From the human T2T-CHM13v2.0 reference genome, Homo sapiens: a stretch of DNA of 64,000 bases. The position numbers and the translations under genes were made by a program. The stretch's first letter is position 1; every line of letters begins with the position of its first letter. The stretch lies in assembly GCF_009914755.1 (NCBI RefSeq), contig NC_060937.1, one strand, 5' to 3'. A model generated the notes under the pieces. It did not search any database. It worked only from the letters and a program-made list of their open reading frames with translations, and was not told where the DNA came from. Positions 29,923 through 41,500 of the stretch are shown one piece after another.

Positions 29923-31320
29923 ATAGACAGAATTTCTGAAAAGTCAGCAGGGTGAATATAGTAATTTCCTACAAAGAAGAAAATAAAAATATCATTACAA
30001 TATGGATTTAATAGCTTTGTCTTTTATTTTATTCAGCACAGCATAAGAATATAGATGTACCTCCTTTGGTTTATTATAAAGGTGCATTGTTTTCCATTTC
30101 ATGGTACCTTTATGCCTTTAATCAGAATCTAACAATATGTATGTTATTGTACATACATTTCTTACATTTCTAAAAATCACTAAAGACTGATTAGTCATAG
30201 GTGTCAGATTTTTTTAATTATACATTTTCACTATATACATGTATGTATACACATGTATACAGTGTGCATCTTTGTGCATCAGTTTTTCAGTGTACACTTT
30301 AACCCTAGGAATAATATATCATTGTTCATATGCTTAATATAAATATCAGTGTCTTAGTTTTTTACAACTTAAGTTCCAATGACTTCTTTGTATAATGAAG
30401 AGATTAGATACAATTTAGTGTTTTCATTTTAAACAATACATTTTGGAATAAACAATGGATAACTATGAACAAGTCGGTCACTTTCTGTAGGATTCTTTAT
30501 TTGATATATTATGGAGTTAGGCACAATTATGATTAAGCTCTGTCCACATTCCAATATCTTTGAAATATGCAGAGTATTTAAGGTACAGAGGAGAATGAAG
30601 AAAAAGACAATTCTAGGATCAATTTATAGAATATAACTGATAAATATATGTTTCAAAGAAAATCTTGCAAGTAGAGCAATTTTCAAACTTTAGTTTTCTA
30701 AAGTATTTAAATTATGTAATACCACTACTTAAATATCTGTTTTTGGTTCCCTTTAATTTTTTAAATAATTTCTACAAAATATTAAGTTTAGCATGCAGCT
30801 CATGAAATAAAACATATATTTTATAATAAGGCCAGAAACAGGTAATATTCTTTAAAACAAATTAACTATGAGTGAGTAGTTTTATCTCAGCATAAATTTA
30901 ATTAAAAATACTCTAATGAATTTTCGTTATGGTTGAAATTATTCTTTTAATTATTGTTATCTAATTTAATTTTAGTCTATTTTTTAAAAAATAGAACTCA
31001 AATACAGCTGACTCTTGAATGACATACGTTGGAACGTGTAAGTTCTGACTTAATTTGCAGGTTTTTTTCCTTAAAAGTTATACCAAGTGTTCCTGCCTCT
31101 CCTAACTCCCCTTTCAACTCCTCCACCTCTTCTGCATCTGCCACCCCTGAGACAGCAAGACCAACCCCCACTATTTCTCCTACTCCAGCACCTACTCTAA
31201 AATTAAGACTTTTATGATAATCCACTTCCACTTAATAAATGATAAATGTGTTTTATCTTATGACTATCTTAATAACATTTTATTTTCTCTAGCTTATTTA
31301 ATTGTAAGAATACAGTATAC

Positions 31321-31363
31321 TAAACTGATAAGAACAGATACTACACTTGATCTTAGCCAAAAG
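31321..31363 (-). pseudogene. U2 snRNA pseudogene fragment (U2 nt 14-56)
   Basis: Reverse complement is CTTTTGGCTAAGATCAAGTGTAGTATCTGTTCTTATCAGTTTA, identical to the known U2 5' region including the branch-point pairing sequence GTAGTA. Confidence 0.95.
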
Positions 31364-32176
31364 ATGAAGGATATGAACAGACACTTCTCAAAAGAATACA
31401 TTTATGTGGACAACAAACATATGAAAAAAAGATCATCAATGGTCATTAGAGAAATGCAAATCAAAACCACAATGAGATACCATCTCACGCCAGTTAGAAT
31501 GGTGATTATTAAAAAGTCAGGAAATAACAGTTGCTGGTGAGGCTGTGGAAAAACAGGAACACTATTACACTGTTGGTGGGAGTGTAAATTAGTTCAACCA
31601 TTGTGGAAGACAGTGCCATGATTCCTTAGAGATCTAGAACTAGAAACACCATTTGACCCAGCAATCCCATTACTGGGTATATAGCCAAAGGATTATAAAT
31701 CATTCTGTTATAAAAACACGTGCACACATATGTTTATTGCAGCACTATTTACAATAGCAAAGACTTGGAACCAACCCAAATGCCCATCAGTGATAGACTG
31801 GATTTAAAAAAAAGTAATACGTATACACCATGGAATACTATGCAGTCATAAAAAAAGAATGAGTTCATGTTCTTTGCAGGGACATGGATGAAGCTGCAAA
31901 CTAACACAAGAACAGAAAACCAAACATCGCATGTTCTCACTTATAAGTGGGAGTTGAGCAGTGAGAACACATGGACACAGGGAGGGGAACATCACACACT
32001 GGGGCCTGTCACTGGGTCAGGGGGCAAGGGGAAGGAGCGCACTAGGACAAATATCGCATGCATTCAGGGCTTAATACCTAGATGATGGATTGATAGGTGC
32101 AGCAAACCACCATGCCACGTGCATACCTATGTAACAAAACTGCACGTTCTGCACATGTATCCTAGAACTTAAAAAA
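31364..32176 (+). mobile_element. 5'-truncated L1PA (approx. PA7/8) 3' end
   Basis: [10 protein letters not shown]...[18 protein letters not shown] in ORF 31214..31540; 3'UTR ending CCTAGAACTTAAAAAAAA; TSD AAGAATACAGTATA (31306-31319, 32177-32190). Confidence 0.95.
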
Positions 32177-33400
32177 AAGAATACAGTATATATTTCCTAT
32201 AATATACAAAATATGTGCTAATTGTTGGTTTTTTGTAAGACTTCCAGGCAAAAGTAGTTATTAGTAGTTAAGTTTTCTGGGAGTCAAAAGTTAAATGTTG
32301 CACAGTGTTTTGGTGCCACTAAGTTCACATTGTTCAAGGGTTAACTGTGTATTATAATGACAGTCTCATATACTTAGAGAAATTGCAATCTGTTTGCTTA
32401 TAAGTATTATAATTGCTTGATAAACCAAATGGAGCTTTGGCTTTGTTATAGTTTATAAATTTATTTTCCCCAAGCCTTTAAAACCAACTGTATAATTTTG
32501 TTTTCATGTACAAAGGCATTTAGTAGTTTGAAGCTAATGTGTCATATTTGGCTGCCCTTGTCATAGTCCATCCATCATATTCCTTTCAGTAAGACATAAT
32601 CTGATTTTTGTTGATGAACATGATTTGAGATACAAGAGCCCCATCTTATGTAAAAGGTCAAAGATAACCAAAGTACAGTGAAGATTTTGAGACTAACGAC
32701 AAACAAAAATCCTTTGTCATGGAGTAATTAGAATATGCAATAGAAAAAAACTTTATTTTCCTCATACTGTTTGTTCTCAGTTTTATTTATAAATAAGTGT
32801 ATACATTAAAAAAGAAAAATTTGCAATAAAGCCATTGAATGTTATATGCAATAATGGCTGCGGCTATATCCACAAAATTCTTTGACAGGTACAAAAACAT
32901 TTTTTAAGGCAAGGCATTTTGCTTAATAGTGAATAAATTTGTATTTACATGTAAACAATGTTTGTCCTGCTGGTAAGTGCTTCAATAACCTATAAACTTC
33001 ATTTTGTATCCTCTTTATTTTATGGCAATTTCCAAAGGCTCTCCAACCATAGGGTTTCAGAAAAATTTATTAAAAACCTTTTGTCTCTACCTTCAAACAC
33101 TACCATTTTTGCCATCGTTACTACTTCTTATTCACTTTCTCTCTTCTTGAGGCATAAATTTCACTGTTACTTATTAAAATAGTCCTGTAACCAACACTAA
33201 ACCAATTTTAGTACTTCTTAATCATTTATTAAGGGAATTGATATTACTGAATTCAGAATAAGGGGAGAAACCAAAAATAGAAAAAATAAAATATCGTGGA
33301 CTTGAATTATTCTATCAATATCTTATTTTTTCTTTTAGTTAACATGTGGAAGATAAAAGATCACTGCCTCCATGGAACATACTGTTCATTAATTTTTATT

Positions 33401-38597: not shown

Positions 38598-41500
38598 GAT
38601 GATGTCAGAAGTGGGATCCAAAGTAGAGGTTCTAACGACCCCCAAGAACACTGAGTGACCAAACAAGGTACCTGCTGGACTCACTTGTGTCTGCTGATCT
38701 TTCAGGGCAGCTGGGGATTGTGGTAAGTTTTCTCTAGGAGTCTGAAACTCCATGGATTTGTGCTTTGAGCTCTCTGAGTTTCTTTGAGCAAATTTCTTTT
38801 GGAAATTTGGGTTTGGAAGTTGTGACAGAAACTGGACTGGGTCCAGAATTGGATTAGATCTGGTAATTAACTGGGTTGGATCCAGTTAGAGGTCTCTTAC
38901 ATCTGACTGGGTCAGACAGAAATTGGCAGTAAATGGTAATATTGCAAGAATTGTAAAATTTGGCTTTTGGAAATTCTCAGGGATTTTTGTTTTCTACCCC
39001 TTTGTTTCATTTTTCTTGTATGCTTAGGTAAGAAAAAAAATCATTGGCAAGGGAAAGGAAACCCAAGAGCAAAGACACTACCTTAGATAAAAATGGGATC
39101 TTTAATTTCTGAAGAACTGAGTTCTTTCTGGCTTATACGTGCATAAATGTTAGGCCCCAGAAGCAGCAAAGTCTTACAGAAATGGCAAAATCTTACTAAA
39201 GATAACTTGCTGTGGAACATTCTGAATGAACAACAACACACTGATGTACATTTAAAAATGAGGGCTCCTAAATTAGTCTCATCTAGGGATGCCTATTAAT
39301 GTGCAGAAGTTTCTAAAAAAATTTCAGTGGTTTTATTTAAGACTTTACAAAAGGCAAATAAAAAGCTTAAGGGACTAATTGATTAAAAAAAATCTGTCTC
39401 GTACTTTTTGCTGATGGGAATGGGTGATGGGATTAGGCATGCACAGGATCATGGGATACAGGAAACATTTTTCTTCTTGAAGGAGGAGCTGGAGAGCTGA
39501 TGGGACTGCTTGAAAGTCCCTTCGTGACTGAAAAGTGGTCACCTGAATTTTTGATTCAATATCTCTGCAATGGATGAATCATTCTCTGGCCTCCCTGAGC
39601 TTCTTGCCTTCCCCACCCTACCTCAGGCAATACTACTCTCTCTCTCTCTGTGCAAACTGGTTGTGGGAATGATAAAAATCACTATCTCTTGCAAAGGTTT
39701 AATTAATGAGAAAAGGATTCATGAGGCTAGTCTTAAGCTGTACTGAATCTAGTGTATTTTGTGCTATGAATTTGTCTTTCTGTGTCATTCTGTCACAAAG
39801 AGGGGTACCTTAGGATAGAACATGGGCTTAGGACCCCATAAGCTTGCTGTTCAAGACAGCCCAGCAAGCTGGTCAGTTACAAACTTTGCTGCAGGTCCCC
39901 AACACAAACAAAAAACTGGATGAGGTCTCTATCTTGATTTTTGTCCTTGGGAGCTTGAACTTGTAACCATGTGGTGGTACTTTCTTTTGGTCTCCACCAT
40001 CTTGGGAACAGGAGTTTTGGGGTTCATGTTATAGTTAGCTCTAAAAATTATCTTGAGTAGATAAAAGCCATTGCAAGTTCAAAATTGACTACTCTAGACT
40101 CGACTCCTTCTGGGAAAAGCAATGGAACCTGCCCAAATGCTGTAGCTCACCAGCTAAGGTTTTGTCATTTTATCATTTTAGATGCCATTTTATCATTATA
40201 AAGCCTGGTTCAATCTTATATTGAGTACTTCCTGGTTAATATCTTTGTGACTTTTTCCATTTGTTTCTTCTCTTCCCCTCCATGAACAACTTCTTGTTTC
40301 CTTTCTTAAATTTTCCCTACCTTGAGCTACCTTGAAAGACTCTAGATTTTGTAAAATCTGCTTACCACCTCTTTGAAAATACCTCATACACTCATAGTTA
40401 ATTCATAACCTTAGTTGAGGCTTGTTGATTTCGCTTATTAGGTTACCTTTGGTGAAGTTTAAAAGCCCAAAATATTGGCTGTTTGGCCTCGCAAAAGTAT
40501 CATAATAAAAAATTTAAAAGGACATTTTTTTTTTAGAGAGCATTATGGTTAAAAGTCAGCTTAATTAAAAGTGGATATCCAAGCTATAGGTATATTTAAA
40601 AGGCCTTCACGTTTTTTTCTCTTTTTGGACCTTGTTTTTCTGGGAAAAAGGTTTCTATTTCTTCTTGTTGACTGAATTATTTTTCTCCATTTTGTCTTGC
40701 CACTCTTAATGCACACATGAGTGGCCCTAAGATAACTTTTAATAGCCTGGAAGTCTTTGGGAAAAACAGAGAAGGCATCACAGACCAAGATTTGAGAAAA
40801 AATCTCTGTTTTGCTCATGAAACTCCAGGAATTGAAAGTTAATAAGTTCCTCTCAAAACCTAAGTCTCTGTTCTGTTTTGTATTGTGTTATCTGATGGTT
40901 TTTAGTTTGGGGGTGTCAGAAATTACTTCACACCATGAGAGAGCTTTGGTGTGTAATAACTAGGTAGGCAATAGACTGTTAGGGCTGGCTAATGGCAGTT
41001 ATAAGGGAATACTTAGCTCTTTGCACCTTTGGATCAGGGAAGCATGCTCTTGGCCACCTAGAAAGCATGGAAATGTCCTCATGTCCCACTGAAGGATAAA
41101 AATTCCGTGAGGGATGGGCTAATTGCAAAATGGGCTAATTGGTTTAGGGTTGCCATGCAATAAAGTGCACGGTAAAGGTATTGCACTATCTTTTCCTGTA
41201 GCATTTTTCTCTTTTGGGGGTTCCAGGATGTGATATAAAAATAAGATCCTAAATTTTGGAGATCTGTTTTTGTCTTCCAGCTGTGCCTGCTTATTAGGCC
41301 CTAGAAACTGCATGTTTTCCTGGCCCTGTTACTTGAAGAACTCCACCCTAAAGCCAGTAATCCAATTAAGCAACTTTAAAACTGGCAAATGAAAGATCTT
41401 ATAAATTCTGGTTATTCTTCTATCTGTCTGTGTAGTTATATGTATTGTGTGTGTGATGTTTATGTAAAAGAGCTCTAATTAATTGACTTTAAGAAAAATA

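What the first reader, a model, noticed from the sequence alone, without database searches (positions are those of the whole stretch)
31306..32190. U2 snRNA / L1 chimeric insertion with U2 in antisense: twin priming on two different RNAs
Seen: one 14-bp TSD (AAGAATACAGTATA, 31306-31319 and 32177-32190) brackets 43 nt identical to the reverse complement of U2 nt 14-56, joined directly to a sense 5'-truncated L1PA 3' end with A tail; the Tigger2a host resumes after the TSD, so this is a single event. The target end (CAGTATAT in the right copy, CAGTATAC in the left) resembles CAGATAT, the reverse complement of U2 nt 57-63, exactly where the U2 copy stops. Known: classic snRNA-L1 chimeras (mostly U6-L1) are co-oriented, and twin priming normally uses one L1 RNA. 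Inference: the bottom-strand nick primed L1 poly(A) while the top-strand 3' end primed internally on a separate U2 RNA, and the two cDNAs were joined. The U2 piece shows no mismatch while the co-inserted L1 is visibly diverged; at 43 nt this may be chance, but a plus-strand transcript would be antisense to the U2 branch-point pairing region.
Basis: partly seen in the sequence, partly recalled or inferred. Interest (0 to 1): 0.8.

Follow-up and report, generated by a model that had tools for sequence, protein, structure and literature searches.

The report
Known inverted U2/L1 retrotransposition chimera
A short backwards copy of U2 spliceosomal RNA was inserted together with a truncated LINE-1 element in one ancient retrotransposition event; it is real, but both this kind of chimera and this locus are already published.

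Summary
An exact 14-bp direct repeat (31306-31319 and 32177-32190) brackets 43 nt identical to the reverse complement of U2 nt 14-56, followed by a sense, 5'-truncated L1 3' end with a short A tail. Paralogues of the host repeat carry the 14-mer once with the flanks contiguous, so this was one insertion.

The bottom-strand nick primed L1 poly(A), and the top-strand 3' end primed inside U2 RNA. Six more loci in this genome have the same architecture. In all seven, U2 homology ends within nt 55-60, inside the loop of stem-loop IIa, which is also where solo 3'-truncated U2 pseudogenes end.

It is not new. Doucet et al. 2015 (PMC4476161) described inverted, 3'-truncated snRNA/L1 chimeras, one of them U2/L1, and proposed twin priming. 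Table S2 of a 2026 catalogue (PMC13174262) lists this locus as L1PA8 with U2:14-60 on the opposite strand, and lists five of my six other loci.

The mismatch-free U2 piece is compatible with chance (P about 0.02-0.07, before allowing for selection of this locus). Nothing supports an antisense-U2 function. One chr11 locus appears uncatalogued.

The parts
31306..31319 (+). Left copy of the target-site duplication, AAGAATACAGTATA. Its last three bases (ATA) are in register with the reverse complement of U2 nt 60-58.
   Evidence: (D4). Paralogues of the host repeat carry this 14-mer once.
31320..31320 (+). A single C between the TSD and the perfect U2 match. It lies opposite U2 nt 57, where T is expected. 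The right TSD copy and 7 of the 9 displayed host paralogues have T at the next base, so a 15-bp TSD with a later T-to-C change is equally possible.
31321..31363 (-). U2 snRNA nt 14-56 on the minus strand, antisense to the L1. It matches this genome's own RNU2 array copy at 43 of 43 positions and includes the branch-point-pairing region.
31364..32170 (+). Sense, 5'-truncated L1 3' end of about 810 bp (ORF2 C-terminal part plus 3' UTR). The translation carries stop codons. The published annotation is L1PA8.
   Evidence: (5 stops in the frame-1 translation)
32171..32178 (+). Short A tail of 8 As. The last two overlap the first two bases of the right TSD copy.
32177..32190 (+). Right copy of the target-site duplication, AAGAATACAGTATA. 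The host repeat resumes directly after it.

Best explanation
This is a neutral relic of one L1-mediated insertion into an older interspersed repeat. It belongs to the published class of inverted snRNA/L1 chimeras made by twin priming.

Inferred steps, in order:
1. L1 endonuclease nicked the bottom strand at the left edge of what became the TSD. In L1 orientation the site reads GT/AAGA.
2. The T-rich 3' end primed reverse transcription on the poly(A) of an L1PA8 RNA.
3. The top strand was cut 14 or 15 bp downstream.
4. Its 3' end (...GTATA or ...GTATAT) annealed to the A/U-rich single-stranded loop of U2 stem-loop IIa (nt 53-60) and primed a second cDNA, running from nt 56 towards the U2 5' end.
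5. The two incomplete cDNAs were joined at U2 nt 14 and at the L1 position about 810 nt from its 3' end, sharing at most one base.
6. Gap repair produced the TSD.

Shown here: the architecture, the single TSD, the empty-site structure, where the U2 homology ends, and recurrence at other loci. Inferred: the order of the nicks, the identity of the primers, and how the cDNAs were joined. The element has no demonstrated function.
For: (1) One exact 14-bp TSD brackets antisense U2 plus sense L1. In 9 of 11 paralogues of the host repeat the flanks are contiguous with one copy of the 14-mer.

(2) The pattern taken from window 31322-31352 (3 or fewer mismatches) has 91 genome matches against 0 for the reversed control. 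All 91 were fetched and classified. 54 are 3'-truncated at U2 nt 52-66, 30 are near full length and 7 are intermediate.

(3) In 7 of those 54, a sense L1 running to its own 3' end starts within a few bases of the U2 5' side. Six of the 7 have one TSD of 14-17 bp around both parts, three exact and three with one mismatch.

(4) In all 7, in-register U2 similarity ends at nt 55-60. That is the loop of stem-loop IIa in the Rfam consensus structure. Solo truncated copies end in the same place, with modes at nt 57 (16 copies) and nt 60 (10 copies) among the 53 tabulated.

(5) The bases before the left TSD give T-rich/A-type sites in L1 orientation. In the snRNA orientation the sites are not T-rich. 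Both were read.

(6) All 7 chimeras lack U2 nt 1-4, against 13 of 47 other truncated copies (Fisher p 0.00044). This fits the joining of two unfinished cDNAs.

(7) Doucet et al. 2015 describe the same features and model for inverted U/L1 chimeras, including one U2/L1. Table S2 of PMC13174262 lists this locus among manually curated chimeric insertions.
Against: Microhomology at the priming junction is weak in this copy: 3 nt (ATA) followed by a mismatched C, or 4 nt if the TSD was 15 bp and the left copy later mutated.

The bottom-strand site (GT/AAGA) is only a loose match to the TTTT/A consensus.

The catalogue flags this locus found_by_msa_prediction = 0, so its automatic multi-species test did not call it. 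It entered the table by proximity plus manual MSA inspection.

I could not examine primate orthologues. Nothing here shows directly which nick came first or which strand primed which RNA.
Confidence: 0.85

Rival explanations
1. Two separate insertions: a solo 3'-truncated U2 pseudogene and an L1 landed next to each other at different times.
For: Solo U2 1-57 pseudogenes are common, with 47 other truncated copies, and L1 is abundant. One U2 piece (L064) lies inside an old L1 by independent insertion.
Against: There is only one TSD, and it encloses both parts. The host paralogues show no other duplication or loss. No U2 nt 1-13 remnant follows the L1 tail. The only nearby similarity to the TSD is a 9-11 nt match at 31390-31400. 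It lies inside continuous L1 sequence, so it cannot be a TSD of the U2 piece. The same architecture recurs at 6 other loci, 5 of them with a bracketing TSD.
Confidence: 0.03
2. One event, but the U2 cDNA was not primed by the top-strand target end. A free U2 cDNA fragment, or a U2 RNA fragment cleaved in the loop, was captured as filler at the L1 5' junction by end joining.
For: There is an extra C and only 3 nt of microhomology at the TSD/U2 junction, and at most 1 shared base at the U2/L1 junction. PMC13174262 raises targeted RNA processing as a possibility for recurrent truncation points of U3 and 5S, which are other RNAs.
Against: In 5 other chimeras the TSD's 3' end overlaps U2 loop bases in register, by 2-5 nt read. 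Solo copies with TSDs show the same overlap and T-rich primer ends (Doucet et al.). That is what target priming predicts, and simple capture does not require it.
Confidence: 0.1
3. The antisense U2 piece is preserved by selection because a plus-strand transcript pairs with the U2 branch-point recognition region.
For: 43 of 43 identity next to an L1 whose private divergence is about 0.076 substitutions per site.
Against: P(0 of 43) is 0.02-0.07, and P(1 or fewer of 44) is 0.09-0.26 if the C at 31320 is counted. This locus is the best-preserved of at least 7, so there is a selection effect. The piece has no CpG. At three other loci the U2 piece's mismatch fraction tracks the private divergence of its L1: 6.5% against 0.085, 6.7% against 0.057 and 12.5% against 0.146. 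The site is intergenic in the supplied annotation, with the nearest exons at 2587-2673 and 38607-38722. Dozens of other genomic copies carry the same U2 segment.
Confidence: 0.02

Closest known systems
Inverted snRNA/L1 chimeras formed by twin priming (Doucet et al. 2015, Mol Biol Evol, PMC4476161; a subset of their 'Group IV')
   Same: A 3'-truncated snRNA in opposite orientation at the 5' end of a 5'-truncated L1. One TSD around both. The cleavage site fits L1 EN in L1 orientation. There is complementarity between the snRNA and the insertion site. The truncation lies in a single-stranded loop. They report one U2/L1 case among U2 copies of 97.5% identity or more.
   Different: Nothing in kind. 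Of my 7 loci only the window's copy passes their 97.5% filter, so it may be their U2/L1 example. Their Fig. 1B and Table S1 could not be read, so that is unconfirmed. They thought the class was mainly U5. With a looser identity cut I find at least 7 U2 cases.
Catalogue entry in 'Comparative genomics reveals LINE-1 recombination with diverse RNAs' (Cell Genomics 2026, PMC13174262), Table S2, sheet U2
   Same: The row reads chr13:64730774-64731581:+ L1PA8 with U2:14-60 at chr13:64730725-64730771:-. Chromosome, orientations, U2 range (47 nt), the 2-nt gap and the L1 length (808 nt) all match the window. Five of my other loci (chr5, chr6, chr12, chr15, chrX) are also listed. In that sheet 9 of 13 U2 rows are antisense to the L1.
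   Different: The table gives hg38 coordinates and the window is T2T. I matched them by features, not by liftover. The U2 sheet gives no TSD or EN columns, and the passages and sections I read do not discuss U2 specifically (0 occurrences of 'U2 snRNA' in the main text). The chr11 locus (L002) is absent from the U2 sheets I saw.
Classic U6/L1 chimeras (template switching or RtcB ligation)
   Same: snRNA sequence at the 5' end of a 5'-truncated L1 inside one TSD.
   Different: Those are co-oriented and usually carry full-length U6 (98.3% sense). Here the snRNA is inverted and truncated at both ends, so that mechanism does not fit.
[quoted passage not shown]
   Same: Two cDNAs primed from the two ends of the staggered break and joined in the middle.
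   Different: In the classic case the second template is the same L1 RNA. Here it is a separate U2 snRNA.
Solo 3'-truncated ('tailless') U2 pseudogenes
   Same: The same U2 end point in the nt 52-66 region, and the same overlap between TSD end and U2 loop bases (Doucet et al.).
   Different: Solo copies are primed at the first, T-rich nick, mostly reach U2 nt 1 (30 of 47 start at nt 1), and carry no L1.

Membership tests
Inverted snRNA/L1 twin-priming chimera (Doucet et al. 2015) | snRNA lies in the opposite transcriptional orientation to the L1, at the L1 5' end | tested here: met
   U2 is on the minus strand. L1 is sense on the plus strand, starting at 31363/31366.
Inverted snRNA/L1 twin-priming chimera (Doucet et al. 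2015) | One TSD encloses both parts (a single event) | tested here: met
   Exact 14-bp repeat at both outer ends. 9 of 11 host-repeat paralogues show a single copy and contiguous flanks.
Inverted snRNA/L1 twin-priming chimera (Doucet et al. 2015) | snRNA is 3'-truncated within a single-stranded segment | tested here: met
   U2 homology ends at nt 56-60. The Rfam consensus structure puts nt 53-60 in the loop of the second stem-loop.
Inverted snRNA/L1 twin-priming chimera (Doucet et al. 2015) | Cleavage site fits the L1 EN consensus in L1 orientation, not in snRNA orientation | tested here: met
   The L1-orientation site is GT/AAGA. It satisfies the 1T/3A rule used in PMC13174262 but is a loose match to TTTT/A. 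The snRNA-orientation site is TATA/TA, which is not T-rich.
Inverted snRNA/L1 twin-priming chimera (Doucet et al. 2015) | Sequence complementarity between the snRNA and the insertion site at the junction | tested here: inconclusive
   There are 3 nt (ATA, U2 nt 60-58) and then a mismatched C, or 4 nt if the TSD was 15 bp. The overlap is clearer at the other loci, at 2-5 nt.
Inverted snRNA/L1 twin-priming chimera (Doucet et al. 2015) | Joint presence or absence of both parts in orthologous loci | not testable with these tools
   No primate genomes are held. PMC13174262 includes the locus after manual MSA inspection, but with found_by_msa_prediction = 0.
Template-switch or ligation snRNA/L1 chimera (U6/L1 type) | snRNA co-oriented with the L1 | tested here: not met
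   U2 is antisense to the L1.
Classic L1 5'-inversion (twin priming on one L1 RNA) | The inverted segment is L1 sequence | tested here: not met
   The inverted 43-47 nt are U2, not L1. Other L1 copies match only from query position 64-68 onward.

The most novel reading that the evidence does not exclude
The perfectly preserved antisense U2 nt 14-56 could be transcribed on the plus strand and pair with the branch-point-recognition region of U2 snRNA, acting as a local U2 decoy. A more modest reading is also open. The loop of U2 stem-loop IIa may be a preferred ORF2p priming site at both nicks, which would make U2 about as frequent a twin-priming partner as U5. The consistent loss of U2 nt 1-4 in chimeras (7 of 7 against 13 of 47) would then mark the joining of unfinished cDNAs. 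The probability given is for the functional reading.
Probability: 0.02. Interest if true: 0.55.

Novelty: already known. Interest (0 to 1): 0.12.

Why it matters
On its own it matters little. It is one fixed, neutral, intergenic relic of a mechanism described in 2015 and catalogued in 2026.

Its value is as a clean textbook example of twin priming on two different RNAs. The census made here also adds small points to that literature:
- With a relaxed identity cut, U2 supplies at least 7 such chimeras in T2T-CHM13.
- In all 7, U2 homology ends in the stem-loop IIa loop, the region where solo U2 pseudogenes also end.
- All 7 lack the extreme U2 5' end.
- One chr11 locus seems to be missing from the published U2 lists.

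Tried and rejected
(1) Recurrent L1 breakpoint. The window and the chr11 locus break the L1 only 11-12 nt apart, which suggested U2/L1 pairing at a hot spot. With all seven L1 start points in hand (-1193, -616, -11, 0, +177, +369, +642 relative to the window's), one close pair among seven is not remarkable. By my own rough arithmetic the chance is about 0.3. I dropped the idea.

(2) Many BLAST hits at -630 to -926 of my L1 reference were an Alu inside locus L003, not L1. I excluded them before counting.

L1 identity rests on homology to other genomic copies and on the published L1PA8 call.

(4) The TSD of the chr5 locus (L102/L079) could not be resolved. It counts as the 1 of 7 without a TSD.

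(6) Doucet et al. Table S1 and Fig. 1B, which would name their U2/L1 locus, are in a PDF or figure that cannot be read. The readable spreadsheet had no 'chr13', 'twin' or 'RNU2'.

(7) A literature search for 'U2 pseudogenes' + 'truncated' + 'retrotransposition' found 0 papers.

(8) I did not examine the 5'-truncated U2 copies that lack an L1 partner (for example L015, L065, L097) for other partner RNAs.
Full report
**What is in the sequence**

Window 31306-31319 and 32177-32190 are exact copies of AAGAATACAGTATA (family D4). Between them, in order, lie:
- a single C at 31320;
- 43 nt (31321-31363) that are the reverse complement of U2 snRNA;
- about 810 nt of sense L1 3' end;
- an 8-A run at 32171-32178.

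Rfam's U2 model (RF00004) matches the minus strand at 38.7 bits and E 9.1e-06. That is below the gathering score of 46, as a fragment must be.

To avoid relying on memory, I took a 188-nt U2 reference from this genome's own chr17 RNU2 array. Four of the nine array copies fetched are identical to it. Against that reference the window matches U2 nt 14-60 at 97.9%, with the only mismatch at nt 57, which is the C at 31320.

Other genomic L1 copies begin to match the window only from 31363-31367 onward. Their sequence upstream of that point is L1, not U2.

**A single event**

An exact direct repeat of 14 nt or more anywhere in a shuffled version of 31000-32500 arose in 22 of 2000 shuffles. Here the two copies sit exactly at the outer ends of the insert.

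The left flank belongs to an old, high-copy interspersed repeat, with 2860 first-look candidates and 74-79% identity among the 39 scored copies other than the window. I used 11 of its paralogues as stand-ins for an empty site:
- In 9 of 11, the window's left and right flanks align contiguously and overlap by the 13-14 nt of the repeat, and the paralogues carry the 14-mer once.
- One paralogue (L110) gave no right-flank hit.
- One (L113) matched the right flank elsewhere.

No second TSD surrounds the U2 piece. The only nearby similarity is a 9-11 nt match at 31390-31400, which lies inside continuous L1 sequence. I could not test the family name 'Tigger2a'.

**Recurrence in the same genome**

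A search with the junction region turned up a chr11 locus that covers both the U2 part and the L1 part. I then searched the genome for the window's 31322-31352 (U2 nt 25-55, reverse complement) with up to 3 mismatches. There were 91 matches and 0 for the reversed control. I fetched all 91 and classified them against the U2 reference:

| Class | Copies |
|---|---|
| Near full length | 30 |
| Intermediate | 7 |
| 3'-truncated at nt 52-66 (modes at nt 57 and nt 60) | 54 |

In 7 of the 54 truncated copies, a sense L1 running to its own 3' end begins within a few bases of the U2 5' side (after discarding hits caused by an Alu inside my L1 reference locus):

| Locus | U2 nt present | L1 start relative to the window's |
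|---|---|---|
| Window (chr13) | 14-56/60 | 0 |
| chr11 (L002) | 25-55 | -11 |
| chr15 | 13-58 | +177 |
| chrX | 16-60 | -616 |
| chr5 | 5-60 | -1193 |
| chr12 | from nt 8 | +369 |
| chr6 | 6-63 | +642 |

Six of the seven have one TSD of 14-17 bp around both parts, three exact and three with one mismatch. The chr5 TSD is unresolved.

In all seven, in-register similarity to U2 stops at nt 55-60. That is the loop of the second stem-loop in the Rfam consensus structure. In five of the six other loci the left TSD's 3' end overlaps those loop bases by 2-5 nt.

**Which nick did what**

In L1 orientation the bases around the start of the left TSD read GT/AAGA (window), TT/AAAA (chr15 and chrX), AT/AAGA (chr6), TC/AGAA (chr11) and AC/AGAA (chr12). 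These are T/A-type sites. The window's is a loose match to the TTTT/A consensus quoted by Doucet et al.. It passes the 1T/3A rule of the 2026 catalogue. In U2 orientation the sites are not T-rich.

Solo truncated U2 copies show the opposite pattern. They have tight TSDs whose T-rich 3' ends overlap the same U2 loop, as expected for first-strand priming directly on U2.

So the U2 loop is a habitual priming site, and in the chimeras it was used from the second nick. All 7 chimeras lack U2 nt 1-4, against 13 of 47 other truncated copies (Fisher p 0.00044). This fits the joining of two unfinished cDNAs. As a caveat, I did not examine some 5'-truncated 'others' for non-L1 partners.

**Is the U2 piece unusually conserved?**

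Using pairwise distances only among ten other L1 3' ends, the window L1's private branch is 0.076 substitutions per site, with a range of 0.059-0.087 over 45 triplets.
- At that rate, P(0 mismatches in 43 nt) is 0.02-0.07.
- If the C at 31320 is counted as a mismatch to U2 nt 57, P(1 or fewer in 44) is 0.09-0.26.
- The piece has no CpG, while the L1 part still has 8.
- This is the best-preserved of at least seven such loci, so there is a selection effect.
- At three other loci the U2 piece's mismatch fraction tracks the private divergence of its L1: 6.5% against 0.085, 6.7% against 0.057 and 12.5% against 0.146.

I see no sign of constraint. In the supplied annotation the site lies between two lncRNA models, with no exon nearer than 38607.

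**Comparison with what is known**

Doucet et al. 2015 (PMC4476161; I read sections 5, 6, 8 and 13 and passages elsewhere) report three relevant things:
- 57 of 58 characterised U2 copies are 3'-truncated.
- Truncations fall in single-stranded segments with complementarity to the target.
They restricted U2 to 97.5% identity or more. Of my seven loci only the window's copy passes that filter, so it may be their example. Their Fig. 1B and Table S1 were not readable, so this is unconfirmed.

A 2026 catalogue (PMC13174262; I read section 10, passages, and parts 1 and 2 of Table S2) lists 13 U2/LINE-1 chimeras, 9 of them antisense. One row is chr13:64730774-64731581(+) L1PA8 with U2:14-60 at chr13:64730725-64730771(-). 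Chromosome, orientations, U2 range, the 2-nt gap and the L1 length all match the window. I matched by these features, not by liftover.

Five of my other six loci are in the same sheet (chr5, chr6, chr12, chr15, chrX). The chr11 locus is not in that sheet. It is also not among the two U2 rows of the second file, as shown.

The catalogue marks the chr13 row found_by_msa_prediction = 0. It entered by proximity plus manual inspection of the multi-species alignment.

**Verdict**

Both the class and this locus are already in print, and the suggestion of conservation or antisense function has no support.

Rivals:
- Two separate insertions: about 0.03.
- Passive capture of a U2 cDNA or fragment at the 5' junction rather than target priming: about 0.10.
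- A selected antisense-U2 function: about 0.02.

Noticed in passing
L002 (G000:C11:115850561-115853656), U2 piece at locus 1501-1531, L1 1529-2377, TSD AGAAGACAGAAACA at 1492-1505 and 2377-2390: A second antisense-U2 (nt 25-55)/sense-L1 chimera with an exact 14-bp TSD. Its L1 breakpoint is only 11-12 nt from the window's. It is absent from the U2 sheets of the 2026 catalogue that I could read, perhaps because the U2 piece is only about 31 nt.
   Followed up: partly
L067 (G000:C11:125677701-125679131): U2 nt 1-57 is followed directly, on the U2 5' side, by the poly-T end of an antisense Alu. A 10-nt repeat (TAAGGCACTT) lies before the U2 piece and about 303 nt after it. This suggests a co-oriented Alu-poly(A)-U2(1-57) chimera, with priming on the U2 loop and then a switch to Alu RNA. 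I saw it only in the listing.
   Followed up: no
L071 (G000:C21:21637227-21638657) and L077 (G000:C4:158118258-158119688): A sense L1 3' end lies directly on the other side of the antisense U2 piece, next to U2 nt 54 or nt 86. These are probably solo U2 insertions into the A/T-rich 3' end of an existing L1, but I did not resolve them.
   Followed up: no
L064 (G000:C11:56759478-56760908): U2 nt 6-55 sits inside an old L1, with L1 on both sides and continuous coordinates (-198 and -204). It is followed by a long A run. This is an independent insertion, not a chimera of the window's type.
   Followed up: no
L011 (G000:C1:52634358-52637388): Antisense U2 nt 6-56 lies between the A-rich tail of one Alu and, 13 nt further on, the 5' end of a second sense Alu. 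It could be an inverted U2/Alu chimera. I did not test this.
   Followed up: no
window 31390-31400 and 32175-32185: An 11-nt exact repeat, AAAAGAATACA, is shared between the L1 body and the tail/TSD junction (D8). It lies inside continuous L1 sequence, so I judge it chance similarity.
   Followed up: yes
G000:C17:44116189-44165511 and 44237137: The RNU2 array appears as 9 tandem hits about 6.1-6.2 kb apart, plus one inverted, more diverged copy about 72 kb away that differs from the reference at 77 of 188 ungapped positions but aligns at 93% with one gap.
   Followed up: no
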